Below are positions 1 to 13,273 of a stretch of 32,363 nt of DNA, piece by piece (position 1 is the stretch's first letter; each line of letters begins with the position of its first letter). This DNA is from a virus. The notes beneath the pieces were generated by a model. That model ran no database searches, had not been told where the DNA came from, and worked only from the letters and a program-made list of their open reading frames with translations. Made by a program: the position numbers and the translations under genes. Location: the UHGV virus genome UHGV-0310739. One strand, given 5' to 3'.

Positions 1-206
1 TTAGGATCGTGGTTAAACAGTGCGCGTACATCATCACCAAGCACATCGTCAAAAGCGCCGGGCCGGATGATTTCGCGGAATGAACCGAATATCAGCTCAG
101 AACGACAGTCAAACACCGAACCATAACCGATAATGTGCGCCGGGTTATCGTCATGCCTCTCAGCACGCACCTCACCGCTGTAACAACGGATTTCACGGTC
201 ATTCAT
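1..206 (-). CDS. Prohead protease, HK97 family (N-terminal part; gene continues beyond window start); flanking DNA outside the Mu-like element
   Basis: Minus-strand ATG at 206-204 preceded by GAGGG; translation MNDREIRCYSGEVRAERHDDNPAHIIGYGSVFDCRSELIFGSFREIIRPGAFDDVLGDDVRALFNHDP carries the PGAF...DVRALFNHD pattern I associate with HK97-type prohead proteases. Not in ORF track because it has no stop in the window. Confidence 0.55.
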   Translation of the reverse strand, partial: MNDREIRCYSGEVRAERHDDNPAHIIGYGSVFDCRSELIFGSFREIIRPGAFDDVLGDDVRALFNHDP

Positions 207-323
207 TGGTTTTTCCCTCATCGTTTTTTGGGGGCTTAAAATCTCCTGCCGGGTTAGCAGCATTCACGCTTACCAGCATCTCGTCCAGCCCTTCAACCGG
301 ATTCATATCCTCGAATGCGCGGG
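199..323 (-). pseudogene. Possible 3' remnant of a gene interrupted by the Mu-like insertion (or a 35-aa small ORF); reading frame open from the attL junction to a TGA overlapping the protease start
   Basis: Minus-strand frame reads RAFEDMNPVEGLDEMLVSVNAANPAGDFKPPKNDEGKTNE then stop at 201-199, overlapping the protease ATG. Only 5 codons are open upstream of the internal ATG, so the evidence for disruption is weak. Confidence 0.25.
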
Positions 324-662: not shown

Positions 663-1187
663 TTATACAGCTTTCTTTACATCGTTTTCTCTTACAGGGA
701 AATTATGTTCTTTGCCTTCATACTGAGACAAAATCTCTCTCACTTTTTCCGGTGGTAATGCCTGAAGAGTTTGCAGGGTTTTCTGTTGCTCCACAGTAAT
801 CCCTAATGCCTCTAATGCCTTATCTTTACTGACAATTGTAGGCATAAGTCCTTTAATCCCTGCTACACGAATGATCTCCACTGCTGCGGCCTGCTCATCT
901 GGTGTTAAGAAACTCATTGCATAAATTAGCCTCTCATCAACTGTATGGACGATTGATGTATGCACTGGTTTATCAGAAAGTGAGGCTCCTTTAATGGCCC
1001 TGCGTGTTTCTTCTGGCAGACTGTTGATGTGATACTCATAAGCGACACCTTTCCCACCGTGACGCTGACGTTTTACCCAATCTTCCGCCACAGCTTTCCT
1101 GGTAATGTTAGTCGCCAACTTTGGTACACCAGGCATCCCTTCCAGCTCTTTCGCATTAAACCATTCTTTGATTTCAAAAGACATCAT
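663..1187 (-). CDS. c: Mu-type repressor c (lysogeny repressor)
   Basis: 174-aa minus-strand ORF divergent from ner; N-terminus ([27 protein letters not shown]...GKGVAYEYHINSLP) is clearly homologous to the N-terminus of the adjacent transposase, the known Mu repressor/MuA shared DNA-binding domain. Confidence 0.85.
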   Translation of the reverse strand: MMSFEIKEWFNAKELEGMPGVPKLATNITRKAVAEDWVKRQRHGGKGVAYEYHINSLPEETRRAIKGASLSDKPVHTSIVHTVDERLIYAMSFLTPDEQAAAVEIIRVAGIKGLMPTIVSKDKALEALGITVEQQKTLQTLQALPPEKVREILSQYEGKEHNFPVRENDVKKAV

Positions 1188-1372
1188 TTAAAATCCTAGT
1201 GATTTCAATAGAGACAAAATAAATTCATATAAAAATCATGCTGTTATATGAAATCATGATAAATCCTTTCAAATCACTATTGATTTAAAAATGATTCCAC
1301 ACTACATTGCACGATATGCCGTGAGCTACTTTATAGCGTAGCTCACGGGGGAATCTGAAAGGATTACATGAA
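1188..1372. promoter_or_regulatory. Divergent operator/promoter region between c and ner (expected Pe/Pc, repressor operators, transposition enhancer)
   Basis: AT-rich 185-bp gap between divergent c and ner with reiterated (a)aatcat/tgattt motifs; about 0.9-1.05 kb from the left end, where Mu's operator/enhancer lies. Individual sites not resolved. Confidence 0.6.
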
Positions 1373-1594
1373 ATGCATATGAATAAAAGAACTAACCGCC
1401 AAGATTGGCACAGAGCTGACATCGTTGCAGAGCTACGAAAACGCAATATGTCACTAGCTGAATTGGGAAGATCTAATCATCTTTCGTCTTCAACATTAAA
1501 AAATGCTTTGGATAAGAGATATCCGAAAGCGGAGAAAATCATTGCAGATGCACTGGGAATGACACCGCAAGATATTTGGCCGTCTCGATACTAG
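1373..1594 (+). CDS. ner: Ner-like DNA-binding regulator
   Basis: 73 aa; first gene of the rightward early operon; motif [23 protein letters not shown]...IWPSRY typical of the Ner/Nlp family; GAAAGGA RBS upstream. Confidence 0.85.
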
Positions 1595-1601
1595 GTGCGC
1601 T

Positions 1602-3590
1602 ATGAAAGAATGGTATACAGCAAAAGAGTTGCTCGGTTTGGCAGGTTTACCAAAGCAAGCCACTAACATTACACGTAAGGCACAAAGAGAAGGCTGGGAG
1701 TTCAGGCAGGTTGCAGGGACTAAAGGTGTATCATTTGAATTCAATATCAAATCATTCCCTGTCGCATTACGTGCTGAAATTCTGTTGCAACAAGGGAGAA
1801 TTGAAACAAGTCAGGGGTATTTTGAAATCGCCCGCCCCACGCTGGAAGCCCATGATTATGATCGTGAGGCACTGTGGAGCAAATGGGATAACGCCAGCGA
1901 TTCCCAGCGCAGACTTGCTGAAAAATGGTTGCCTGCGGTTCAGGCTGCAGACGAAATGCTGAACCAGGGGATTTCAACGAAAACGGCTTTTGCGACCGTT
2001 GCAGGGCATTACCAGGTCAGCGCATCCACTTTGCGGGACAAGTATTACCAGGTACAGAAGTTTGCGAAGCCTGACTGGGCGGCTGCACTTGTTGATGGAC
2101 GTGGAGCATCCCGTCGCAATGTTCACAAAAGTGAATTTGACGAGGATGCCTGGCAGTTTCTGATTGCAGATTATCTGCGACCGGAAAAACCCGCCTTCCG
2201 CAAATGTTATGAGCGTCTGGAACTGGCAGCCCGCGAGCATGGCTGGAGTATTCCCTCCCGTGCCACGGCCTTTCGCCGGATTCAGCAACTGGACGAGGCA
2301 ATGGTTGTTGCCTGTCGTGAAGGTGAACATGCACTGATGCATCTGATACCGGCACAGCAGCGAACTGTGGAACACCTGGACGCCATGCAGTGGATCAACG
2401 GCGACGGTTATCTGCATAACGTCTTTGTACGCTGGTTTAACGGTGATGTGATCCGTCCGAAAACATGGTTCTGGCAGGATGTGAAAACCCGAAAAATTCT
2501 GGGCTGGCGCTGCGATGTGAGCGAGAACATTGATTCAATTCGCCTCTCGTTCATGGATGTTGTGACTCGCTACGGTATCCCGGAGGATTTTCACATCACC
2601 ATTGATAACACCCGTGGTGCTGCGAATAAATGGCTGACGGGAGGCGCGCCCAATCGCTACCGCTTTAAGGTAAAAGAGGACGATCCAAAAGGACTGTTTT
2701 TACTGATGGGGGCGAAAATGCACTGGACAAGCGTTGTTGCCGGTAAAGGCTGGGGCCAGGCAAAACCTGTTGAACGTGCTTTCGGTGTTGGTGGGCTTGA
2801 GGAATACGTTGATAAGCATCCGGCACTGGCTGGCGCATATACGGGGCCTAATCCGCAGGCAAAACCTGATAACTATGGCGACCGCGCTGTTGATGCAGAG
2901 CTGTTTCTGAAAACCCTTGCCGAAGGTGTGGCGATGTTCAATGCCAGAACAGGCCGTGAAACAGAAATGTGCGGAGGCAAACTTTCGTTTGATGACGTTT
3001 TTGAGCGTGAATACGCCAGAACGATTGTGCGTAAGCCTACCGAAGAGCAAAAACGGATGCTGTTACTGCCTGCCGAGGCAGTGAACGTTTCACGTAAAGG
3101 CGAGTTCGCGCTTAAAGTTGGTGGCTCCCTTAAAGGTGCGAAAAACGTTTATTACAACATGGCGTTAATGAATGCCGGAGTAAAAAAAGTTGTGGTCAGA
3201 TTTGATCCACAGCAGTTACACAGCACGGTTTATTGCTACACCCTTGACGGTCGGTTTATCTGTGAAGCGGAATGTCTGGCACCTGTTGCGTTTAATGATG
3301 CTGCGGCAGGCCGTGAATATCGCCGCCGCCAGAAACAACTGAAATCTGCGACGAAAGCAGCAATTAAGGCACAGAAACAAATGGATGCACTGGAAGTGGC
3401 AGAGCTGCTGCCGCAGATAGCCGAACCTGAAGCACCAGAATCACGAATTGTCGGCATTTTCCGGCCTTCCGGTAATACGGAACGAGTGAAGAATCAGGAG
3501 CGTGATGATGAATACGAAACTGAGCGTGATGAATATCTGAATCATTCGCTGGATATTCTGGAACAGAACAGACGTAAAAAAGCCATTTAA
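1602..3590 (+). CDS. A: DDE transposase (MuA)
   Basis: 662 aa; N-terminal domain paralogous to repressor; DDE residues readable at D268 (WINGDGY), D335 (ITIDNTRG), E391 (KPVERAF), matching the spacing of MuA D269/D336/E392. Confidence 0.95.
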
Positions 3591-5054: not shown

Positions 5055-5324
5055 ATGGCAAAGGTTATCTTTGAGTTTACATGGCTGGAAAGTAGTGACG
5101 GTTGCAATGGGCGCAGAGAAGTTCTGGATGCAAAAGCATGTCTTGCAGATATCTCGCCAACGGAAAATACCGGGCCTCATGATTTACTGGCAAATATCGT
5201 CCTGACTATGGCTCCTGAAATTATTAAAAAGGCCAAAGATGAGATGCTGACCACTATGAAGAAAGTGGGTATGGAAGCTGAATGTGATTTAGTACCACAT
5301 CCGGTGAATGCGGTTAAACATTAA
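5055..5324 (+). CDS. Hypothetical early protein
   Basis: 89-aa ORF in the rightward early operon with AGGAG RBS; no recognisable motif. Confidence 0.5.
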   Translation: MAKVIFEFTWLESSDGCNGRREVLDAKACLADISPTENTGPHDLLANIVLTMAPEIIKKAKDEMLTTMKKVGMEAECDLVPHPVNAVKH

Positions 5325-5344
5325 TTCGCAAAGGAACGCTGACA

Positions 5345-5764
5345 ATGAACGTCAAAATCCGAAATGAAATTCAGGCATTAATCCGAATTCAGGAACGCAA
5401 TAACAACGGTGGTGAATTACGCGAGTTTATTTGCGCCAGGAAAGTTGATGATTGTGGTGAAAAGACGTACCTGATTGCTTTCGACCATTACAGCATCTGT
5501 GCGCGTTATTGCGGCGAAAGCATATCCCGCGCCATTGCATTTGGAGGTGCGTTCAACGTGGATTTATGGGAGTACGTCATGGACCGGGAATACATCTGCG
5601 CATCAGACCCTGAAGCCCGTGAAATGTGGCAGCGTATCTGGCGCGATTACCGGTTAATGGCAAAAGGCTGGGCGCGCTGCTGTTATTCCTCGCTTGCCCT
5701 GAAAGCGGTTCAGTTATCGCTGCGACATATTCCGGCACCACTGCGCGAGCCTCTGCTGTACTGA
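5345..5764 (+). CDS. Hypothetical early protein
   Basis: 139-aa ORF, co-oriented and tightly packed. Confidence 0.5.
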   Translation: MNVKIRNEIQALIRIQERNNNGGELREFICARKVDDCGEKTYLIAFDHYSICARYCGESISRAIAFGGAFNVDLWEYVMDREYICASDPEAREMWQRIWRDYRLMAKGWARCCYSSLALKAVQLSLRHIPAPLREPLLY

Positions 5765-6064
5765 ATGGTGGCTGACATGAAGTGTAATCGTAAGCGCTGG
5801 TCACGCGAAGACCGGGAATTTATCGAAGCCAACGTCGGGAAAATGACCGTTGAAGAAATGGCGGAAAAACTGAAAGTCGCCACAACCGCCCTCCGGGCAC
5901 ATGCCAGAAGGCACGGAATATCATTGTGTGTATACCGAATCAGTGAGCACGACAAATATTTGTGTCGTGAACTTTATAAAGAAGGGCTGGATATTCATGT
6001 CATTGCCCGAAAGATGGAATTAAGCAATCGGGCTGTATCCAGCATTGTATACAGCGGATATTAA
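5765..6064 (+). CDS. Hypothetical early protein with two helix-turn-helix-like segments
   Basis: 99 aa; two segments (MTVEEMAEKLKVATTALRAHARRHG and LDIHVIARKMELSNRAVSSIVY) look like HTH units; the start could instead be the in-frame ATG at 5777. Confidence 0.45.
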   Translation: MVADMKCNRKRWSREDREFIEANVGKMTVEEMAEKLKVATTALRAHARRHGISLCVYRISEHDKYLCRELYKEGLDIHVIARKMELSNRAVSSIVYSGY

Positions 6065-7237: not shown

Positions 7238-7767
7238 TGTTTTTTAAAACGTCAAATTCCGCAGCACTGCTGGCATGGGACCAGTTTATGGCGGACTGCC
7301 TGAAACTACGCGAAGAAGCCCGCCATCTTGATAAGGTTCTGGGCTGTGGTTGCCGGTCAGTATTCAGCACAGGTATTGGTGGGCGTCATTTTCATGGCGT
7401 GAATTTTCCGGGGAATGAGCGCCCCTTCTCGCGGGAGCTGTGGACCGTACAACGGCCCGCATCAGGTAACAGTTGCAGGCCCAGAACTTCACGGATACCT
7501 GCTCATCTCAGGGAGCAGGCAAGAGAGCTGGCGAAAATATGGCAGGAGAATATTCCGGTCACTTACGCCCGCACAGACGCTCTTTTACCCGCACTGGGAC
7601 TGGATTTCAGCGCAACAATATTCGGGCCGCTCCAGTGGTTCCGTGTTGGTGATGTGATTTACGTCATGACGGGGATGACACCCGCACAAGGCCGCATGAC
7701 TGAAATCCTTTCTGACGAATTTATCCGGGCGCAAAAACAGGCGGAGGTAAACAATGGAAAACAATGA
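7237..7767 (+). CDS. Hypothetical early protein
   Basis: ATG 7237 with GGAGG 7 nt upstream (ORF track opens at 7198); 176 aa. Confidence 0.5.
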   Translation: MFFKTSNSAALLAWDQFMADCLKLREEARHLDKVLGCGCRSVFSTGIGGRHFHGVNFPGNERPFSRELWTVQRPASGNSCRPRTSRIPAHLREQARELAKIWQENIPVTYARTDALLPALGLDFSATIFGPLQWFRVGDVIYVMTGMTPAQGRMTEILSDEFIRAQKQAEVNNGKQ

Positions 7768-7946
7768 AAAACAATGAAACATCGTATTCGTGGCTGGGGA
7801 AATTTACCACGGTGAAACAGGAATGCCCGACCTGCGGTAATGAATCTCCTGAATATCTGAAAGAGTGCCCTCATTGTGGCGGGCAGAAATGCAACCACTG
7901 CGATATGGGCGATGACACGGCGTGCATGAATTGTGAAGGTGAATAA
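7764..7946 (+). CDS. Hypothetical Cys-rich zinc-ribbon protein
   Basis: 60 aa with four CxxC pairs (CPTC, CPHC, CNHC, CMNC); start overlaps the upstream stop (ATGA). Confidence 0.5.
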   Translation: MKNNETSYSWLGKFTTVKQECPTCGNESPEYLKECPHCGGQKCNHCDMGDDTACMNCEGE

Positions 7947-8238
7947 TATGAATAATGAAACTAAATTTACGCCTAAAGACCTGGATGAAGAACTGGTGAA
8001 AGCTAAGATGCTTGAGCGTATGCGCGATGTTATTGAGACTGCAATCAGTAAAGGCTTTTCTGCGAGAGAGGCCCTTGAAATTATGACACGGGAAATTCAT
8101 CTCATACGCGACGAAGTTTTGTTGCATAACAAAAAAGCCCACAACAATATTGTTTGTCGTGAGCTTGGCGTTGATGATTCAGCGGTTATTCCACAGCGTC
8201 AGTATCTGTGTGCTCTGATGAGAGGTTCCCGGCATTAA
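7933..8238 (+). CDS. Hypothetical protein (last rightward early ORF before the AT-rich island)
   Basis: 101 aa; GAAGGTG RBS 6 nt before ATG 7933; 3' end overlaps the convergent minus-strand ORF by 53 bp. Confidence 0.5.
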   Translation: MKVNNMNNETKFTPKDLDEELVKAKMLERMRDVIETAISKGFSAREALEIMTREIHLIRDEVLLHNKKAHNNIVCRELGVDDSAVIPQRQYLCALMRGSRH

Positions 8239-8545
8239 CAATATCCTGCCTTGAAGCCCAGAGCTTATTGAGCAGCAGATCAACATACTCATCGGCCTCA
8301 AAATCCAGTTCTTCGAACGTTTTTCGGTTCTTATAGCTGGCCTGTGTATTTCTGATGATGTCATAAGCATCGTGCATGTTGATAACACCGTTTTCAATCA
8401 GCTTAATCATCAGATTACCGACCAGCATAAAACCGGTTATACCAAAGAATTTATCCTGGTTATTAACAGGGGTGTCTTTCTGGTTTGTTTCGAAATCTGG
8501 GTTTTGTTCATCATCCGACACCGTATGTTGTTCTTGTTCAGCCAT
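8186..8545 (-). CDS. Hypothetical acidic protein encoded antisense to the early operon (candidate moron)
   Basis: 119 aa; AAGGA RBS about 6 nt before the minus-strand ATG at 8545; Asp/Glu-rich with a disordered-looking N-terminus; sits in a visibly AT-richer segment where a 120-codon open frame is unlikely by chance. Confidence 0.6.
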   Translation of the reverse strand: MAEQEQHTVSDDEQNPDFETNQKDTPVNNQDKFFGITGFMLVGNLMIKLIENGVINMHDAYDIIRNTQASYKNRKTFEELDFEADEYVDLLLNKLWASRQDIVNAGNLSSEHTDTDAVE

Positions 8546-8614
8546 AATATTTCCTTTTATGTTATTACTGAATATGGCGGTGTTGCAGCACCGCCTCTTT
8601 CCGGAGGTACGATC

Positions 8615-9166
8615 ATGAGTCGCACATCCCTGATTAAATTAATCCATGTCGCCCGTCGGGAGCTACAACTCGACGACGACACTTACCGCGCTTTTCTGAT
8701 GCAGAAAACGGGCAAAATCAGTTGCCGCGAGCTTACGGTTACGCAACTGGAACAGGTGCTCGATGCCATGAAAGAACGCGGCTTTAAGAAGCTGAATAAA
8801 TACCCCCGTCGCCGCTTTAAGGAACATGTCACACCCCGCGAGAAGGTGTATAAAATCTGGCAGCAGATGGCAGAAGACGGTTTTATTACCGATGGCGGTG
8901 ATGTGGCGCTGGACAGATATGTTCAACGCCTGACCGCGAAACGCAACGGCGGACAGGGTGTTTCCACACTGGCGTGGTGTCATGGCGACACGCTGCTGAC
9001 AGTCCTCGAAACACTCAAACAGTGGCACATCCGCTGTATTCGTGAAGCCTTTTCCCGTCACGGGCTTCCATTGCCGGTCAGTCCGTCCGGTCGTGAACTG
9101 CGCGGCTATGATGCCATGACGGCGGCTTATGCCCATGCCAGAAAGACACGGAGGATGGCACAATGA
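8615..9166 (+). CDS. gemA: GemA-like protein (Mu gene 16 position)
   Basis: 183 aa from ATG 8615 with GGAGG RBS (track ORF 8372..9166 opens upstream at a GTG through hydrophobic AT-rich sequence); immediately upstream of and overlapping mor, as in Mu. Confidence 0.7.
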   Translation: MSRTSLIKLIHVARRELQLDDDTYRAFLMQKTGKISCRELTVTQLEQVLDAMKERGFKKLNKYPRRRFKEHVTPREKVYKIWQQMAEDGFITDGGDVALDRYVQRLTAKRNGGQGVSTLAWCHGDTLLTVLETLKQWHIRCIREAFSRHGLPLPVSPSGRELRGYDAMTAAYAHARKTRRMAQ

Positions 9167-9552
9167 CGGAAGATTTATTTGGTGATTTGCAGGATGACAC
9201 CATCCTGGCACATCTTGACAATCCCGCAGAGGATACGTCACGCTTTCCGGCACTGCTGGCGGAGCTGAACGATTTACTACGCGGGGAATTGTCCCGACTG
9301 GGTGTTGATCCTGCCCATTCACTGGAGATTGTTGTGGCTATCTGTAAGCATCTGGGCGGCGGTCAGGTCTACATTCCACGCGGTCAGGTTCTGGACTCGC
9401 TGATTCGGGATTTGCGTATCTGGAATGATTTTAACGGTCGCAACGTCAGCGAACTGACCACCCGTTATGGTGTCACTTTCAATACGGTTTACAAGGCCAT
9501 TCGCCGGATGCGACGGCTGAAATACCGCCAGTACCAGCCCTCACTTCTGTAA
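9163..9552 (+). CDS. mor: Middle-operon transcription activator Mor
   Basis: 129 aa; C-terminal region (GGGQVYIPRGQVLDSLIRDLRIWNDFNGRNVSELTTRYGVTFNTVYKAIRRMR) is paralogous to the C protein downstream; followed by a strong terminator. Confidence 0.85.
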   Translation: MTEDLFGDLQDDTILAHLDNPAEDTSRFPALLAELNDLLRGELSRLGVDPAHSLEIVVAICKHLGGGQVYIPRGQVLDSLIRDLRIWNDFNGRNVSELTTRYGVTFNTVYKAIRRMRRLKYRQYQPSLL

Positions 9553-9557
9553 ACAGT

Positions 9558-9582
9558 AAAGCCGGTTAATCCGGCTTTTTTT
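9558..9582 (+). terminator. Rho-independent terminator at the end of the early operon
   Basis: aaagccgg-ttaat-ccggcttt hairpin followed by a T-run, starting 6 bp after the mor stop. Confidence 0.75.
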
Positions 9583-9629
9583 ACGTCCTCAATATCCTGT
9601 GATGAATAACCGTACCGGGGGAAATCATC

Positions 9630-9848
9630 ATGGGTAAAGGCTGGAATGCATCCTTTCATCTTGGCAGACGTGAGCGGCTGCGTCAGGAGGTTTTGCACCG
9701 TGTCGCCGGTGGGCCACGTCCTGCGCCCCGCGACTATACCGGTCATGATGGCACCCACGGCAGTTATTACATGAAAGGCTGGCAGTCAGTTGATATGCCG
9801 GAAATTCTTCATCATTGCCTGCTTTACAGGGAGAAACATTATGTCTGA
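9630..9848 (+). CDS. Hypothetical small protein
   Basis: 72-aa ORF with GGGGGA RBS; first ORF after the early terminator. Confidence 0.35.
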   Translation: MGKGWNASFHLGRRERLRQEVLHRVAGGPRPAPRDYTGHDGTHGSYYMKGWQSVDMPEILHHCLLYREKHYV

Positions 9849-10203
9849 GCGTTCTGCTCGTCAGTGGCCTGATTTTTTATCGGTGGTGTTACTGGCGCTG
9901 TTATTGTGGATAAGTCTGTTTTGTGGCTGGCGCGCGCTGATGTTTTGCTGTGCCTCGGTTTTCAGTGTTGCTTTATGTGTTGCCGGTGATTGCCTGGATG
10001 CGCTGATAATGAGCTGCCGGGTGCCTGAACATTTTGCCCGGTTCGTCTGGCCTCTGACCTGGCTGGGGAGTCTGTCCGGGCTGGGATTAGCCGTGATGGC
10101 AACGTCTCAACTGAAAACGGGTCCTGAGCATGTCATCTGGGCGCTGGCCGGATTGCTGACGTTCTGGATCTCCTTTCGTTTTCGCGCTCGTCTGTTCGGG
10201 TAA
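9841..10203 (+). CDS. Hypothetical integral membrane protein (about 4 transmembrane helices)
   Basis: ATG 9841 with GGGAGA RBS; four long hydrophobic stretches in 120 aa. Confidence 0.5.
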   Translation: MSERSARQWPDFLSVVLLALLLWISLFCGWRALMFCCASVFSVALCVAGDCLDALIMSCRVPEHFARFVWPLTWLGSLSGLGLAVMATSQLKTGPEHVIWALAGLLTFWISFRFRARLFG

Positions 10204-10212
10204 AGGGGCACC

Positions 10213-10332
10213 ATGTACAGAAAATTCAGTGATGAATGTTTCGGGCCGTCCACGCTGATTAGTGCGATAAAAGTGATTGCCCTTGTGGTTCTGATAACCA
10301 TCAGTGCCGTGGTGTATCTTTCTGTCTGTTAA
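10213..10332 (+). CDS. Hypothetical 39-aa single-pass membrane peptide
   Basis: ATG 10213 with aaagggg RBS right after the upstream stop; MYRKFSDECFGPSTLISAIKVIALVVLITISAVVYLSVC has one hydrophobic helix; below the ORF-track size cutoff. Confidence 0.35.
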   Translation: MYRKFSDECFGPSTLISAIKVIALVVLITISAVVYLSVC

Positions 10333-10344
10333 CCGGGGGAAAAT

Positions 10345-10767
10345 ATGCAGCATGATTTATTTGAACACGATCCGGCAATTCGCCAGTTAATCGGACATAT
10401 TGATAACATCCCGGCCCCGGAACTGGAATCACGCTGGCCCCGTTCGGTGGTTGATCTGATTGATGTTCTGGAAAACGAACTGAAACGCCAGAACGTCAGC
10501 AATCCCCGTGAACTTGCCCGTAAACAGGCCGTTGCCCTGTCATGTTTTCTGGGTGGACGGCAGTTTTACATCCCCTGCGGCGATACGATCCTGACCGCGT
10601 TACGCGACGATTTGCTTTACTGCCAGTTTAATGGTCGTAACATGGAAGAACTGCGTCGCCAGTACCGCCTGTCCCAGCCGCAGATCTACCAGATTATTGC
10701 CCGCCAGAGAAAGCTGCATACACGACGTCATCAGCCTGATCTGTTCTCACCTGAAAGCCCAAAATAA
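10345..10767 (+). CDS. C: Late-gene transcription activator C (Mor/C family)
   Basis: 140 aa; C-terminal region aligns by eye with Mor (GGRQFYIPCGDTILTALRDDLLYCQFNGRNMEELRRQY...); GGGGGA RBS. Confidence 0.85.
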   Translation: MQHDLFEHDPAIRQLIGHIDNIPAPELESRWPRSVVDLIDVLENELKRQNVSNPRELARKQAVALSCFLGGRQFYIPCGDTILTALRDDLLYCQFNGRNMEELRRQYRLSQPQIYQIIARQRKLHTRRHQPDLFSPESPK

Positions 10768-10790
10768 CCGGCATCCTGCCGGTTATTTCC
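10766..10790 (+). terminator. Possible terminator hairpin at the C stop codon
   Basis: aaccggca-tcc-tgccggtt perfect 8-bp stem overlapping the stop, followed by only a weak T tract (atttcc). Confidence 0.4.
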
Positions 10791-10858
10791 TGTCACCATA
10801 ATCCCGCATCTGCCACCTGATTTTTTAGACTGCCATCAGAGCATTTTTTCAGGGAAGC

Positions 10859-11377
10859 ATGATGGCGGGGATACCAAAAAAACTGAAAGCCACACTGCTG
10901 GCTGTAACGATTGCCGGTGGCGGTGTGGGTGGTTATCAGGAAATGACCCGTCAGTCTCTGATCCATCTGGAAAATATCGCTTATATGCCTTACCGCGATA
11001 TTGCCGGTGTGCTTACGGTCTGTGTGGGACATACCGGGCCGGATATCGAAATGCGCCGTTACAGCCATGCGGAGTGTATGGCTCTCCTCGACAGTGATTT
11101 AAAACCGGTTTATGCGGCAATCGATCGTCTTGTCAGGGTGCCGCTGACGCCATATCAGAAAACGGCGCTGGCAACGTTTATTTTCAACACTGGTGTTACC
11201 GCATTCAGTAAATCAACGCTGCTGAAAAAACTCAATGCCGGTGATTACGCCGGAGCGCGTGACCAGATGGCCCGCTGGGTGTTTGCCGCAGGCCATAAAT
11301 GGAAAGGACTGATGAACCGTCGCGAAGTGGAAATGGCAATCTGGAATATCAGGGGGGCGGATGACCTTCGCAAGTAA
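10859..11377 (+). CDS. lys: Endolysin, T4-lysozyme-like (GH24) with N-terminal signal-anchor-release-like domain
   Basis: 172 aa; catalytic triad spacing E-9-D-6-T in HLENIAYMPYRDIAGVLTVCVGHTG as in T4 lysozyme E11/D20/T26; Gly-rich hydrophobic N-terminus (LKATLLAVTIAGGGVGGY). Confidence 0.85.
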   Translation: MMAGIPKKLKATLLAVTIAGGGVGGYQEMTRQSLIHLENIAYMPYRDIAGVLTVCVGHTGPDIEMRRYSHAECMALLDSDLKPVYAAIDRLVRVPLTPYQKTALATFIFNTGVTAFSKSTLLKKLNAGDYAGARDQMARWVFAAGHKWKGLMNRREVEMAIWNIRGADDLRK

Positions 11378-11747
11378 AAGTTTACTGCTGGCAGCCGTGT
11401 TTGCCGCCGTTCTGTCCGGTGTGTTGTGGCACAGGCTGGGCAGCACCCGCCACGATAACCAGACGCTGCGCCGTGAATTACAGACGGAGCAACAGGCCCG
11501 CCACACGGCTGAATGGTTGTTACACGGTCAGGAGCAAACGATGCAGGTATTTTCCGCTATCCGTGCCGCAAATCGTGCCGCGCGGCTGGCAGACGAGACA
11601 GAACATCATGATGCAAAACAAAAAATTACAACCGCCATTACCGGTGACAATTGCAGCACTCGTCCTGTGCCTGCCGGTGCTGCTGACAGGTTGCGGGAAC
11701 TCGAAAAACGCACCCGTGCCATCGGTGGTGCTCCTGCCCGAAACTGA
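11361..11747 (+). CDS. Inner-membrane spanin component (i-spanin, Rz-like)
   Basis: 128 aa; N-terminal transmembrane helix (LLLAAVFAAVLSGVLW) followed by a charged, helical periplasmic region; directly after the endolysin. Confidence 0.6.
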   Translation: MTFASKSLLLAAVFAAVLSGVLWHRLGSTRHDNQTLRRELQTEQQARHTAEWLLHGQEQTMQVFSAIRAANRAARLADETEHHDAKQKITTAITGDNCSTRPVPAGAADRLRELEKRTRAIGGAPARN

Positions 11748-11949
11748 TGCAGAACTGACGGAAGCAACACCCGTTCCGCCCATGCCACAGCCCCTGACGT
11801 GGGGAGCATCCCTTCTCTGGAATGCTGACCTGTTGATGGCGCTCGGGCAGTGCAACCGCGACAAGGCATCAGTCCGGGAACAGGAGACCCGGAGGAAAGA
11901 AATTTATGAACGAAGACCAGAACCGGGCGGTGGTGCTGCTGCTCGCTGA
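11608..11949 (+). CDS. Outer-membrane lipoprotein spanin component (o-spanin, Rz1-like), overlapped architecture
   Basis: Starts in the +1 frame inside the i-spanin gene; signal peptide with lipobox LLTGC; proline-rich mature region; extends past the i-spanin stop. Unusually long at about 113 aa. Confidence 0.5.
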   Translation: MMQNKKLQPPLPVTIAALVLCLPVLLTGCGNSKNAPVPSVVLLPETDAELTEATPVPPMPQPLTWGASLLWNADLLMALGQCNRDKASVREQETRRKEIYERRPEPGGGAAAR

Positions 11950-12100
11950 ACTCTGGCAGGGGGATACCCGTGATATTCCCCGCCCGGCGGCGTATGACCC
12001 GCCTGTATTGTGTGCCGGTTGCGGTCGTGAGCTGCGGCCTGATGTGCTGAGACAGCAGCCGATGGCGAACTACTGCCACTGGTGCCGTGGAGCAGAATAA
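11906..12100 (+). CDS. Hypothetical zinc-ribbon protein
   Basis: 64 aa; GGAGGAAAG RBS; CAGC and CHWC pairs 18 residues apart. Confidence 0.4.
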   Translation: MNEDQNRAVVLLLAELWQGDTRDIPRPAAYDPPVLCAGCGRELRPDVLRQQPMANYCHWCRGAE

Positions 12101-12399
12101 TGGATTTGATTTCAGTTTTAGCGTTATGGCCTTACCTGTTGCCTGTTGTGGCCGGTGGGGCCGTCTGGGCGATGCGTCGTAGTTTTGCCAGCACCGAGCG
12201 TGTGGAGCGTCTTGAAAACCGGATGACCGAAATGGAAACCCGCTACGCCAGCATCCCAGGCACAGAAGATGTACACGAAATGCGCCTGCGTATTGCAGAG
12301 CTGTCCGGCGATATCCGGGTGCTGTCCCAGCGGGTGCAGTCATTTTCCCATCAACTGGAGCTGCTGCTTGAAAACGCAGTAAACCGGAGTAATTCATGA
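12100..12399 (+). CDS. Small membrane protein with N-terminal transmembrane helix and coiled-coil (candidate lysis regulator / releasin-like, Mu gp25 position)
   Basis: ATG 12100 overlapping the upstream stop (TAATG) with GGAG RBS; 99 aa; N-terminal hydrophobic helix then charged helical region; last gene of the lysis block. Confidence 0.45.
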   Translation: MDLISVLALWPYLLPVVAGGAVWAMRRSFASTERVERLENRMTEMETRYASIPGTEDVHEMRLRIAELSGDIRVLSQRVQSFSHQLELLLENAVNRSNS

Positions 12400-12686
12400 T
12401 TAACGATATTCTGACTGAAGACCGTCGTCTGGTCATCCTGCGTTCCCTGATGGACTGCAATAACGAAGCCAACGAATCCATCCTTCAGGACTGTCTGGAT
12501 GCATACGGACACAACGTTTCCCGCGATGTGGTTCGCGGCCAGATTGACTGGCTGGCAGAGCAGCAACTGGTCACCGTGGAAAACCTGCGCGGCTTTTATG
12601 TCGTAACGCTGACCTCCCGAGGTCAGGATGTGGCGGAAGGCCGCGCCCGCGTTGCCGGTGTCAAGCGTCCGCGTCCCCGTGCATGA
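12396..12686 (+). CDS. Hypothetical protein (Mu gp26 position)
   Basis: 96-aa ORF translationally coupled to its neighbours. Confidence 0.55.
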   Translation: MINDILTEDRRLVILRSLMDCNNEANESILQDCLDAYGHNVSRDVVRGQIDWLAEQQLVTVENLRGFYVVTLTSRGQDVAEGRARVAGVKRPRPRA

Positions 12687-12697
12687 CAGGAGGCGTG

Positions 12698-13273
12698 ATG
12701 GACAGGAAAACACGGGGCCGGGCTTCAAAAGTGGATTTACTGCCGGAAAACGTACGTAAAACGCTGCATGAAATGCTGCGTGATAAGGCGATCCCACAGG
12801 CCCGCATTCTGGAAGAAATTAACGCACTGATTGAAGACGCTGGCCTGCCGGATGAGATGAAACTCTCCCGTTCCGGTCTGAACCGTTACGCGACGAACGT
12901 CGAGCAAGTAGGCCATAACCTGCGACAGATGCGTGAAATGACGTCAGCACTGACCGCAGAACTTGGCGACAAGCCAATGGGAGAAACCACAAAGCTGATT
13001 CTGGAAATGGCCCGCAGCCAGCTTTTTAAGGCCATGATGCGGCAAATCGAAAACCCGGAATCTGACGTGGATATTGACCTGCTGAAAAATGCCATGCTGG
13101 CGGCACAGCGTCTGGAATCCACGGCAATGTCCAGCCACCGGCGCGAGAAAGAAATCCGCCAGGCATTCGCAGAAGAAGCGGCAAACGCCGTCAGTGAAGA
13201 ACTGCGCGGGCAGGATGGCATCAGCGAAGAGCTGGAGCAGCGTATCCGTGATGTGCTGCTGGGTAAGGCATGA
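12698..13273 (+). CDS. Terminase small subunit-like protein (Mu gp27/D position)
   Basis: ATG 12698 with GGAGG RBS; 191 aa, basic N-terminus (MDRKTRGRASKVDLLPENVRKTL) and acidic helical C-terminus; immediately upstream of the large terminase. Confidence 0.65.
   Translation: MDRKTRGRASKVDLLPENVRKTLHEMLRDKAIPQARILEEINALIEDAGLPDEMKLSRSGLNRYATNVEQVGHNLRQMREMTSALTAELGDKPMGETTKLILEMARSQLFKAMMRQIENPESDVDIDLLKNAMLAAQRLESTAMSSHRREKEIRQAFAEEAANAVSEELRGQDGISEELEQRIRDVLLGKA

What the first reader, a model, noticed from the sequence alone, without database searches (positions are those of the whole stretch)
10859..12399. Lysis cassette with no obvious holin: SAR-type endolysin, overlapped spanins, and a TM/coiled-coil protein
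The endolysin has T4-lysozyme catalytic spacing but a Gly-rich hydrophobic N-terminus, suggesting signal-anchor-release export. It is followed by an i-spanin and an o-spanin (lipobox LLTGC) that starts inside the i-spanin gene and runs well beyond it (about 113 aa, long for an Rz1-type protein), then a zinc-ribbon ORF and a 99-aa N-terminal-TM plus coiled-coil protein. No classic multi-TM holin is evident, so lysis may be triggered by a releasin-type mechanism.
Basis: partly seen in the sequence, partly recalled or inferred. Interest (0 to 1): 0.45.

Follow-up and report, generated by a model that had tools for sequence, protein, structure and literature searches.

The report
Phage Mu holin-less lysis cassette
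This is the cell-bursting gene cluster of a phage Mu-type prophage (a membrane-anchored lysozyme, two spanin proteins, a small zinc-finger protein and the "releasin" gp25).

Summary
Window 324-32363 is 100% identical to Escherichia virus Mu_3F6, and the late region is about 98% identical to phage Mu. The flagged stretch 10859-12399 is the Mu lysis cassette. It holds gp22 SAR endolysin, gp23 i-spanin, gp23.1 o-spanin (+1 frame, 113 aa, lipobox LTGC), gp24 (a 64-aa four-Cys protein) and gp25 (99 aa, DUF2730). gp25 is 100% identical to the Mu releasin. gp22 differs from Mu at only two residues and keeps K6, K7, K9 and the E37-D46-T52 triad.

Chamblee et al. 2022 (PMC9239132) showed that Mu has no holin, that gp22 is a SAR endolysin and that its release needs gp25. 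The current GenBank record of Mu already carries these annotations.

- A small multi-TMD protein, gp19, and the 1-TMD gp20 lie just upstream and were missed. Both were excluded as holins experimentally in Mu, and gene 19 is naturally absent from SfMu and PhiR68_1.
- The 113-aa o-spanin is not a frame error. A relative with only 59% identity also has exactly 113 aa.
- gp24 looks like a TraR/DksA-type C4 zinc finger on weak evidence, and Mu lysis does not need it.

The parts
10765..10851 (+). End of the middle operon and the late promoter Plys. There is a hairpin CCGGCA-TCC-TGCCGG followed by TTATTT just after the C gene, then the C-activated late promoter that drives the lysis and head genes.
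   Evidence: Positions were transferred from the AF083977.1 annotation (terminator 10383-10406, late promoter 10403-10469; window = Mu + 382). Only 2 nt differ from Mu across 10768-10861. The hairpin is read directly. The generic sigma-70 scan finds no promoter here, as expected for an activator-dependent promoter.
10862..11377 (+). gp22, SAR (signal-anchor-release) endolysin, a T4-lysozyme-type muramidase of 171 aa. An alternative ATG lies at 10859.
   Evidence: Pfam Phage_lysozyme 1e-37. E37/D46/T52 and K6/K7/K9 are present. It is 169/171 identical to Mu gp22 (A11T, Q171K). The N-terminus is weakly hydrophobic and Gly-rich. The Mu record annotates it 'SAR endolysin'. Experiments on Mu are in PMC9239132.
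11361..11747 (+). gp23, i-spanin (inner-membrane spanin subunit), 128 aa.
   Evidence: N-terminal TMD with KD19 1.93. PHROG Rz-like spanin 4.4e-35. 122/128 identical to Mu gp23. The Mu record annotates it 'i-spanin'.
11608..11949 (+). gp23.1, o-spanin (outer-membrane lipoprotein subunit), 113 aa with a mature part of about 85 aa. It lies in the +1 frame of gp23 in the overlapped architecture.
   Evidence: Lipobox LTGC with Cys29 and Gly30. Pfam LysC 1.8e-14 against a cut-off of 27 bits. PHROG Rz-like spanin 2.4e-29. 106/113 identical to Mu_55 o-spanin, with W65 (the amber site used in Mu) conserved. Relative L009 has the same 113-aa length and +1 frame at 59% identity.
11906..12100 (+). gp24, a 64-aa C4 zinc-finger protein of unknown function. 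It is possibly TraR/DksA-like and is not required for lysis in Mu.
   Evidence: C36xxC39-x17-C57xxC60. The AF2 model has pLDDT 76.5, with helix 3-18 plus a Zn knuckle. The Foldseek top hit is TraR 6n57_M at E 0.34, and DksA fingers fit at rmsd 0.6-0.9 Å over 28 residues. hhalign against TraR gives E 7.6e-4 and probability 25%. NCBIfam DksA_like gives E 0.019. There is no significant Pfam hit. In Mu, gp22 + gp25 alone lyse cells.
12100..12399 (+). gp25, releasin: a 99-aa DUF2730 protein with an N-out/C-in single TMD and an acidic helical cytoplasmic domain. It is needed to release gp22 from the membrane.
   Evidence: 100% identical to Mu gp25. Pfam DUF2730 2.5e-13 against a cut-off of 24.9 bits. 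TMD at residues ~3-24 followed by R26-R27. The Mu record annotates it 'releasin'. The experiments are in PMC9239132.
9841..10203 (+). gp19, a 120-aa multi-TMD middle-operon protein. It was considered as a holin candidate and rejected, and it is not part of the lysis system.
   Evidence: Hydrophobic segments. The Mu record gives 4 TMDs, N-in C-in. It sits upstream of Plys between Mor and C. [quoted passage not shown] Exactly this gene is absent from SfMu and PhiR68_1 (window 9845-10213 missing), and it is absent from L009.
10213..10332 (+). gp20, a 39-aa single-TMD middle-operon protein. It was once proposed as an antiholin and rejected, and it is not part of the lysis system.
   Evidence: KD19 2.77. 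Mu annotation. Experimental exclusion in Mu.

Best explanation
The region is the late-transcribed lysis cassette of a Mu-type transposable prophage. It works as shown for phage Mu.

1. The activator C turns on the late promoter Plys.
2. gp22 is exported by the Sec system but stays tethered, enzymatically inactive, in the inner membrane. The tether is its weakly hydrophobic Gly/Ala-rich N-terminal SAR segment, locked in place by the cytoplasmic basic residues K6 and K7.
3. gp25, the releasin, is a DUF2730 protein with one N-out/C-in TMD and an acidic cytoplasmic domain. It promotes escape of the SAR segment from the bilayer without forming a lethal, depolarising hole.
4. Released gp22 refolds and degrades the peptidoglycan.
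5. The gp23/gp23.1 two-component spanin then disrupts the outer membrane.

No holin takes part. gp24 is a small C4 zinc-finger protein that lysis does not need.

Shown in Mu: gp22 is a SAR endolysin; release depends on gp25; K6 and K7 confer that dependence; spanin mutants give the spherical-cell phenotype; no holin-like lethality occurs. Shown here: near-identity of all these proteins and conservation of every key residue. Inferred: the window's alleles (gp22 A11T/Q171K and the spanin substitutions) behave the same. Unknown even for Mu: how gp25 acts. The models on the table are charge neutralisation or cleavage of the gp22 N-terminus, a transient channel, or a host partner.
For: - Window 9100-12800 is 100% identical to Mu_3F6 and 98.6% to Mu and D108. 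Window 324-32363 equals Mu_3F6 150-32189 with no mismatch.
- Per-protein comparison with Mu: gp25 0 differences, gp24 1, gp22 2 (A11T, Q171K), gp23 6, gp23.1 7. K6/K7/K9, E37/D46/T52, lipobox Cys29 and W65 are all conserved.
- Pfam: Phage_lysozyme, LysC and DUF2730 are all above their curated cut-offs. PHROG gives endolysin and Rz-like spanin.
- The current Mu GenBank record annotates SAR endolysin, i-spanin, o-spanin and releasin at the homologous positions.
- Experiments in PMC9239132: 22::cam and 25::cam lysogens fail to lyse. gp22 + gp25 together lyse, and neither does alone. K6A or K7A removes the gp25 dependence. The phage 21 pinholin or chloroform releases gp22. gp19, gp20 and gp25 are not lethal after DNP, and DNP delays Mu lysis. 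A 23.1 amber mutant gives spherical cells.
- A six-frame hydropathy scan finds TMD-bearing genes only at gp19, gp20, gp23, gp23.1 and gp25. The other + strand ORFs with a hydrophobic segment are 576-758, 5626-5775, 8372-9166, 8376-8618 and short ORFs lying inside larger genes, plus single segments inside the large sheath and baseplate proteins. None of these short ORFs is annotated in Mu_3F6 or Mu.
- A divergent relative, L009 (51-86% aa identity), keeps the whole gp22-gp26 order, the GIPKKLKA motif, a 113-aa o-spanin and the DUF2730 protein. It has no gp19 or gp20.
Against: - Nothing in the sequence contradicts this reading.
- No experiment was done on this exact allele set. A11T lies inside the SAR segment and lowers its hydrophobicity slightly, which could change release kinetics.
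- SAR versus cleavable signal peptide cannot be decided from sequence with the tools here. Several -3/-1-compatible sites exist in the Gly run. The call therefore rests on the Mu experiments.
- The window ends at Mu position ~31981, so the last ~4.7 kb of the prophage were not inspected. In Mu that region encodes tail fibre, Gin, Com and Mom, with no membrane protein.
- The molecular mechanism of gp25 is unresolved.
Confidence: 0.93

Rival explanations
1. gp19 (multi-TMD) and gp20 (1 TMD), just upstream, are the holin-antiholin pair that releases the endolysin. This is the proposal of Samanta et al. 2021, as cited in PMC9239132.
For: gp19 is a small 120-aa protein with 3-4 hydrophobic segments, and gp20 is a 39-aa single-TMD protein. 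They lie 0.5-1 kb upstream of the endolysin. By topology alone they resemble holin and antiholin.
Against: They lie in the middle operon, upstream of C and Plys, not in the late lysis transcript. [quoted passage not shown] Gene 19 is missing from the phages SfMu and PhiR68_1, and both genes are missing from the divergent relative L009, which keeps gp22-gp25. Neither gives a Pfam holin-family hit.
Confidence: 0.03
2. The endolysin N-terminus is an ordinary cleavable Sec signal peptide, so the enzyme is secreted and active constitutively. Lysis timing is then set only by late transcription.
For: The layout is n-region with Lys, then a hydrophobic stretch, then small residues. Several positions in the Gly run satisfy the -3/-1 rule.
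Against: The hydrophobic core is unusually weak: the 19-residue KD mean stays below 1.0, with 5 Gly in residues 10-25. In Mu, gp22 expressed alone does not lyse. It is released by a pinholin, by chloroform or by gp25, and K6A or K7A makes it gp25-independent. This is the behaviour of a membrane-tethered SAR domain, not of a cleaved signal.
Confidence: 0.02
3. gp25 is an atypical single-TMD holin or pinholin. It depolarises the membrane and so releases the SAR endolysin the conventional way.
For: It is a small late-expressed membrane protein in the lysis cassette and is required for lysis. It also speeds release of unrelated SAR endolysins, as a pinholin would.
Against: In Mu, gp25 expression has no effect on growth, and DNP triggering is not lethal. 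DNP delays Mu lysis rather than advancing it. Only about 4 residues are periplasmic and most of the protein is a cytoplasmic acidic helix. Dependence on gp25 maps to two cytoplasmic Lys residues of gp22.
Confidence: 0.04

Closest known systems
Phage Mu lysis cassette gp22-gp23-gp23.1-gp24-gp25 (Chamblee et al. 2022, mBio, PMC9239132; GenBank AF083977.1 Mu_22, Mu_23, Mu_55, Mu_24, Mu_25)
   Same: Gene order, lengths, overlaps, reading frames and promoter context are the same. gp25 is identical. All functionally mapped residues are conserved: K6, K7 and K9, E37/D46/T52, lipobox Cys29, and W65 of gp23.1.
   Different: There are 29 nt differences across 10768-12399, and 21 of them fall in the spanin genes. 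The amino-acid changes are gp22 A11T and Q171K, gp23 6 changes, gp23.1 7 changes, and gp24 A10V. The exact sequence is that of Escherichia virus Mu_3F6, LR595867.1, whose record does not annotate the o-spanin and calls gp25 hypothetical.
Pinholin-SAR endolysin systems (phage 21 S21-68/R21; P1 Lyz)
   Same: The endolysin has an N-terminal signal-anchor-release segment that tethers it inactive in the inner membrane until it is released.
   Different: There is no pinholin. Release depends on a DUF2730 cytoplasmic-domain protein and on two basic residues of the endolysin. Depolarisation delays Mu lysis rather than triggering it.
Two-component spanins: lambda Rz/Rz1 (embedded) and P2 LysB/LysC (overlapped)
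   Same: An inner-membrane subunit with an N-terminal TMD is paired with an outer-membrane lipoprotein encoded in the +1 frame. In Mu, the 23.1 amber mutant was tested together with lambda RzRz1. The o-spanin matches the Pfam LysC family.
   Different: The architecture is overlapped, not embedded. The o-spanin precursor is longer than lambda Rz1 (113 aa; the lambda length is from my own knowledge). It is still shorter than its i-spanin partner, as in 489 of 528 pairs surveyed (PMC6139136).
TraR/DksA C4-type zinc-finger RNA-polymerase-binding proteins (F-plasmid TraR, PDB 5w1s/6n57). A dksA/traR-type gene occupies a similar slot in the Mu-like Burkholderia phage KS10 (gp7, PMC2628397).
   Same: gp24 is similar in size (64 vs 73 aa). 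It has an N-terminal helix preceded by an acidic tip (N2-E3-D4), C-x2-C-x17-C-x2-C spacing, and register-matched alignment to TraR residues 33-62. In KS10 the traR-like gene also lies between the endolysin and the small terminase.
   Different: No significant profile hit: Pfam gives none, NCBIfam DksA_like gives E 0.019 at 15 bits against a cut-off of 105, and Foldseek gives E 0.34. The gp24 family is tiny and restricted to Mu-type phages. No functional data exist.

Membership tests
Mu-type holin-less lysis system (SAR endolysin + DUF2730 releasin) | Endolysin with a muramidase domain and the E-X8-D-X5-T catalytic triad | tested here: met
   Pfam Phage_lysozyme 1e-37. E37, D46 and T52 are present.
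Mu-type holin-less lysis system (SAR endolysin + DUF2730 releasin) | N-terminal weakly hydrophobic Gly/Ala/Thr-rich SAR segment, preceded by the basic residues K6 and K7 that confer releasin dependence | tested here: met
   The N-terminus is MAGIPKKLKATLLAVTIAGGGVGGY. Its KD19 stays below 1.0, and residues 10-25 hold 5 Gly, 3 Ala and 2 Thr. K6, K7 and K9 are invariant in Mu, SfMu and the 79%-identical L009 homologue.
Mu-type holin-less lysis system (SAR endolysin + DUF2730 releasin) | [quoted passage not shown] | tested here: met
   Pfam DUF2730 2.5e-13, 50.4 bits against a cut-off of 24.9. TMD at residues ~3-24 followed by RR. It is the fourth gene after the endolysin. It is 100% identical to Mu gp25.
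Mu-type holin-less lysis system (SAR endolysin + DUF2730 releasin) | Endolysin release and lysis depend on the DUF2730 protein | not testable with these tools
   Shown for Mu with an identical gp25 and a 99%-identical gp22 (PMC9239132). Inferred for this window.
Mu-type holin-less lysis system (SAR endolysin + DUF2730 releasin) | No functional holin in the genome | tested here: inconclusive
   The sequence scan finds TMD genes only at gp19, gp20, gp23, gp23.1 and gp25, and no Pfam holin family is hit. Holins are too diverse to exclude by sequence. The functional exclusion comes from the Mu experiments and from natural gp19-less phages. The last ~4.7 kb of the prophage lie outside the window.
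Two-component spanin, overlapped architecture | [quoted passage not shown] | tested here: met
   TMD at residues ~4-22 with KD19 1.93. PHROG Rz-like spanin 4.4e-35.
Two-component spanin, overlapped architecture | o-spanin: a lipoprotein signal with a lipobox Cys and no Asp at +2, giving outer-membrane sorting | tested here: met
   The signal ends ...VLLTG|C29-G30. Pfam LysC 1.8e-14. The Mu record cites PROSITE PS51257 at C29.
Two-component spanin, overlapped architecture | The o-spanin gene starts inside the i-spanin gene in another frame and extends beyond its stop | tested here: met
   It starts at 11608, inside gp23 (11361-11747), in the +1 frame, and stops at 11949. L009 has the same geometry.
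Canonical holin (for gp19/gp20) | Encoded on the late lysis transcript with the endolysin | tested here: not met
   gp19 and gp20 lie between the middle promoter Pm and gene C, upstream of the C-dependent late promoter Plys.
Canonical holin (for gp19/gp20/gp25) | Lethal triggering on membrane depolarisation, and required for lysis timing | not testable with these tools
TraR/DksA C4 zinc-finger family (for gp24) | C-x2-C-x17-C-x2-C zinc-finger spacing | tested here: met
   C36, C39, C57 and C60. The first three Cys are invariant across the 4 homologues and the fourth is present in 3 of 4.
TraR/DksA C4 zinc-finger family (for gp24) | Significant sequence-profile match to the family | tested here: not met
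   No Pfam zf-dskA_traR hit even at E<=10. NCBIfam DksA_like gives E 0.019 at 15.3 bits against a cut-off of 105. The PDB profile search gives DksA 2kq9 at E 1.1. hhalign against TraR gives probability 25%.
TraR/DksA C4 zinc-finger family (for gp24) | Fold: N-terminal helix plus a C4 zinc knuckle superposable on TraR/DksA | tested here: inconclusive
   The AF2 model has pLDDT 76.5 and was built from only 4 sequences. The Foldseek top hit is TraR 6n57_M with E 0.34 and TMq 0.43. DksA fingers fit at rmsd 0.6-0.9 Å over 28 residues.

The most novel reading that the evidence does not exclude
gp24, the 64-aa C4 zinc-finger ORF between the o-spanin and the releasin, may be a minimal TraR/DksA-like protein. 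Its stop codon overlaps the gp25 start (TAATG). As a TraR-like protein it would bind the RNA-polymerase secondary channel, so the Mu 'lysis cassette' would carry a host-transcription modulator co-expressed with the releasin. The Mu lysis study does not mention gp24 at all. A weaker reading is that the A11T change in the SAR segment of this allele alters lysis timing relative to Mu.
Probability: 0.3. Interest if true: 0.35.

Novelty: already known. Interest (0 to 1): 0.08.

Why it matters
It adds little. The holin-less, releasin-dependent lysis pathway was a genuine surprise when it was published for Mu in 2022, and this window simply carries the same cassette in the Mu_3F6 variant.

The practical value lies in annotation. 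Many Mu-type records, including Mu_3F6, SfMu, D108 and the Yersinia Mu-like phages, still leave the o-spanin uncalled and label gp25 'hypothetical'.

Two small leads remain. Natural gp19-less Mu-type phages (SfMu, PhiR68_1) independently support the conclusion that gp19 is not a holin. And gp24 may be a TraR-like protein.

The real open question, how DUF2730 releases a SAR domain, cannot be advanced from this sequence.

Tried and rejected
1. Frame error in the o-spanin: rejected. Mu has the same 113-aa ORF, and L009 has exactly 113 aa in the +1 frame with lipobox LLTSC at 59% identity.

2. A hidden holin elsewhere in the window: not found. The six-frame Kyte-Doolittle scan gave only the known membrane genes in annotated coding frames. 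The other hits are unannotated short ORFs inside larger genes, or antisense ORFs.

3. gp19/gp20 as holin-antiholin: rejected on operon position, the Mu experiments and natural deletions.

4. gp24 co-conserved with DUF2730 across phages: not so. tblastn finds gp24 only in the 14 close Mu-type records, whereas gp25 also reaches Pseudoalteromonas, Pasteurella and Klebsiella phages and Mu-like elements inserted in Stx phages. The 5.8-billion-protein search gave 5 hits. The exhaustive HMMER search gave only 3 credible short homologues; the rest were long repetitive proteins.

5. gp24 family assignment: only sub-threshold hits from Pfam, NCBIfam and the PDB sequence search.

A crude -3/-1 scan is uninformative in the Gly run.

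7. The generic sigma-70 scan does not find Plys, as expected for a C-dependent promoter.

8. No later paper resolving the releasin mechanism was found in the library.
Full report
**What the window is**

A megablast of window 9100-12800 against the phage collection gives 100% identity over the full length to Escherichia virus Mu_3F6 (LR595867.1). It gives 98.6% to phage Mu (AF083977.1 / NC_000929.1) and to D108. A whole-window comparison shows that window 324-32363 equals Mu_3F6 150-32189 with no mismatch. It aligns to Mu at 97-98.5% except for three short replaced stretches. The canonical Mu left end (TGTATTGATTCACTTGAAGTACG) starts at window 324. The window is therefore a Mu-type transposable prophage read from its left end into the tail-fibre genes.

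**Checking the observation**

| Gene | Window coordinates | Length | Key features |
|---|---|---|---|
| gp23 | 11361-11747 | 128 aa | i-spanin |
| gp23.1 | 11608-11949 | 113 aa | o-spanin, +1 frame, begins 140 nt before the gp23 stop and ends 202 nt after it |
| gp24 | 11906-12100 | 64 aa | four-Cys protein |
| gp25 | 12100-12399 | 99 aa | DUF2730 releasin |

- gp22 has E37-X8-D46-X5-T52. Its N-terminus is MAGIPKKLKATLLAVTIAGGGVGGY. The 19-residue Kyte-Doolittle mean of that segment never reaches 1.0, whereas gp23, gp23.1 and gp25 each have a clear hydrophobic segment (1.93, 2.29 and 1.84).
- gp23.1 carries the lipobox L-T-G-C with Cys29 and Gly at +2.
- gp24 has C36xxC39-x17-C57xxC60.
- Pfam gives Phage_lysozyme (1e-37), LysC, the Rz1-like lysis protein (1.8e-14), and DUF2730 (2.5e-13), all above the curated cut-offs. 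PHROGs gives endolysin and Rz-like spanin for the first three proteins.

**What it is**

The current GenBank record of Mu annotates the homologous genes as SAR endolysin (Mu_22), i-spanin (Mu_23), o-spanin (Mu_55, 342 nt, lipobox LTGC at C29), hypothetical protein (Mu_24) and releasin (Mu_25).

Residue-by-residue comparison with Mu:
- gp25 is identical.
- gp24 differs at one residue (A10V).
- gp22 differs at two (A11T, Q171K).
- gp23 differs at six.
- gp23.1 differs at seven.

Of the 29 nucleotide differences in 10768-12399, 21 fall in the spanin genes. Every residue with an experimentally assigned role in Mu is conserved. These are K6, K7 and K9, the catalytic triad, the lipobox Cys, W65 of gp23.1 (the amber site used in Mu) and the RR motif after the gp25 TMD.

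**How it works**

The mechanism was established for Mu by Chamblee et al. 2022 (PMC9239132).

- Deleting gene 22 or gene 25 abolishes timely lysis.
- gp22 and gp25 together lyse cells, and neither does alone.
- gp22 can be released by the phage 21 pinholin or by chloroform, so it is a membrane-tethered SAR endolysin and not a cleaved secretory protein.
- K6A or K7A makes gp22 independent of gp25. K-to-R substitutions do not. It is therefore positive charge at these two cytoplasmic positions that locks the SAR segment in the membrane.
- gp25 also promotes release of unrelated SAR endolysins.
- A gp23.1 amber mutant gives the spherical-cell spanin phenotype.
- None of gp19, gp20 or gp25 is lethal on DNP depolarisation, and DNP delays Mu lysis rather than triggering it. 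Mu has no holin.

How gp25 acts is still open. The models are cleavage or charge neutralisation of the gp22 N-terminus, a transient channel, or a host partner. I found no later paper that resolves this; a 2024 preprint still describes it as unclear.

Given an identical gp25 and a 99%-identical gp22, I take the same pathway to operate here, with confidence 0.93. What is inferred rather than shown is that the A11T change inside the SAR segment is neutral.

1. 'No classic multi-TM holin is evident' overlooks gp19 (9841-10203, 120 aa; 3-4 hydrophobic segments, 4 TMDs in the Mu record) and gp20 (10213-10332, one TMD). They lie only 0.5-1 kb upstream and were in fact proposed as a holin-antiholin pair (Samanta et al. 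2021, cited). They are excluded on three grounds.
   - They belong to the middle operon, upstream of C and Plys.
   - The Mu experiments rule them out.
   - Nature has run the same test. SfMu and PhiR68_1 lack exactly window 9845-10213, which is gene 19. The Yersinia Mu-type phages show the same ~89% two-piece coverage. The divergent relative L009 has neither gene, yet keeps gp22-gp26 intact.

2. The 113-aa o-spanin is not a sequencing artefact. Mu has the same length. L009, at 59% identity, also encodes exactly 113 aa in the +1 frame with lipobox LLTSC and the conserved Cys81. The protein is shorter than its i-spanin partner, as in 489 of 528 surveyed pairs. The combined periplasmic length of roughly 190 residues lies well within the reported 62-300 range (PMC6139136).

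3. The 'zinc ribbon' has the DksA/TraR C4 spacing.

**gp24 as a side lead**

gp24 is not mentioned in the Mu lysis paper. It is not needed for lysis, since gp22 + gp25 suffice.

Its family is tiny. There are 5 hits in the 5.8-billion-protein search. The exhaustive HMMER search gave only 3 credible short homologues. In the phage collection it occurs only in the 14 close Mu-type records, whereas DUF2730 reaches further.

An AlphaFold model built from four sequences (pLDDT 76.5) shows an N-terminal helix (residues 3-18) followed by a zinc knuckle. The supporting comparisons are all weak:
- The Foldseek top PDB hit is TraR bound to RNA polymerase (6n57_M, E 0.34, probability 0.54). Several DksA zinc fingers superpose at 0.6-0.9 Å over 28 residues.
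- hhalign of the gp24 alignment against TraR aligns gp24 32-61 with TraR 33-62 in register, with E 7.6e-4 and probability 25%. I checked the TraR sequence I used against PDB 5w1s_M.
- NCBIfam DksA_like gives E 0.019.
- One phage record labels the homologue 'TraR/YbiI family protein'.
- The Mu-like Burkholderia phage KS10 has a dksA/traR-type gene in a similar slot between the endolysin and the small terminase.

This is a lead, not a membership call. Pfam gives no hit.

**Verdict**

The finding is a correct reading of a system that is already known and already annotated in the reference record. Novelty is 'already known' and interest is low.

Noticed in passing
window 1-323: The 323 bases left of the Mu end are not Mu. 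They match, at 99.7%, an 'HK97 family phage prohead protease | phage portal protein' junction found in 216 of 5426 complete E. coli genomes. This Mu-type element is therefore inserted inside another prophage's head genes. The flank also differs from the 149-base flank in the Mu_3F6 record. In the phage collection, gp25 homologues also turn up in Mu-like elements inserted in Stx-converting phages.
   Followed up: partly
window 684-1789, 5075-5329 and 7974-8575: Three stretches have no alignment to reference Mu, although they are identical to Mu_3F6. The first covers the repressor, ner and start-of-A region, and the left-end 324-683 is only 79% identical to Mu, which suggests a different immunity type. 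The second is a small early-region replacement. The third replaces Mu genes 14 and 54.
   Followed up: partly
window 8186-8545 (- strand): A 119-aa acidic ORF on the opposite strand to all its neighbours, in the semi-essential early region just upstream of gemA. Mu_3F6 annotates it as hypothetical. It matches phrog_38610 (8e-83, unknown function) and has no Pfam hit. It may be an accessory gene carried by the phage; function unknown.
   Followed up: partly
window 9845-10213 versus L005 (SfMu) and L008 (PhiR68_1): Gene 19, the multi-TMD middle protein, is cleanly absent from SfMu and PhiR68_1, and by coverage from several Yersinia Mu-type phages. In vB_YpM_5 the gene 18-19 region is replaced by other ORFs. 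This is natural evidence that gp19 is dispensable.
   Followed up: yes
window 11361-11949: The two spanin genes hold 21 of the 29 nucleotide differences from Mu within the cassette: 4.1% in gp23 and 2.9% in gp23.1, against 0.5-1.0% in gp22, gp24 and gp25. In gp23.1 there are 7 nonsynonymous changes against 3 synonymous. This is either a local divergence hot spot or a recombination patch.
   Followed up: partly
L009 1958-2341: In the divergent Mu-type relative from a Logan assembly, the slot between gemA and the Mor-family (C-like) regulator gene, which in the window holds mor and genes 18-20, holds instead a 127-aa protein with a signal-peptide-like N-terminus (MQRMNNKRMWLAGIVLATCSMGAFADD...). 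Only one Mor/C-family gene is called there.
   Followed up: no
window 7764-7946: gp13 (E14) is a 60-aa protein with several CxxC pairs: CPTCG, CPHCGG, CNHC and CMNC. It gives only faint DnaJ-CXXCXGXG and rubredoxin-type hits. It is another small zinc-binding early protein of unknown function.
   Followed up: no
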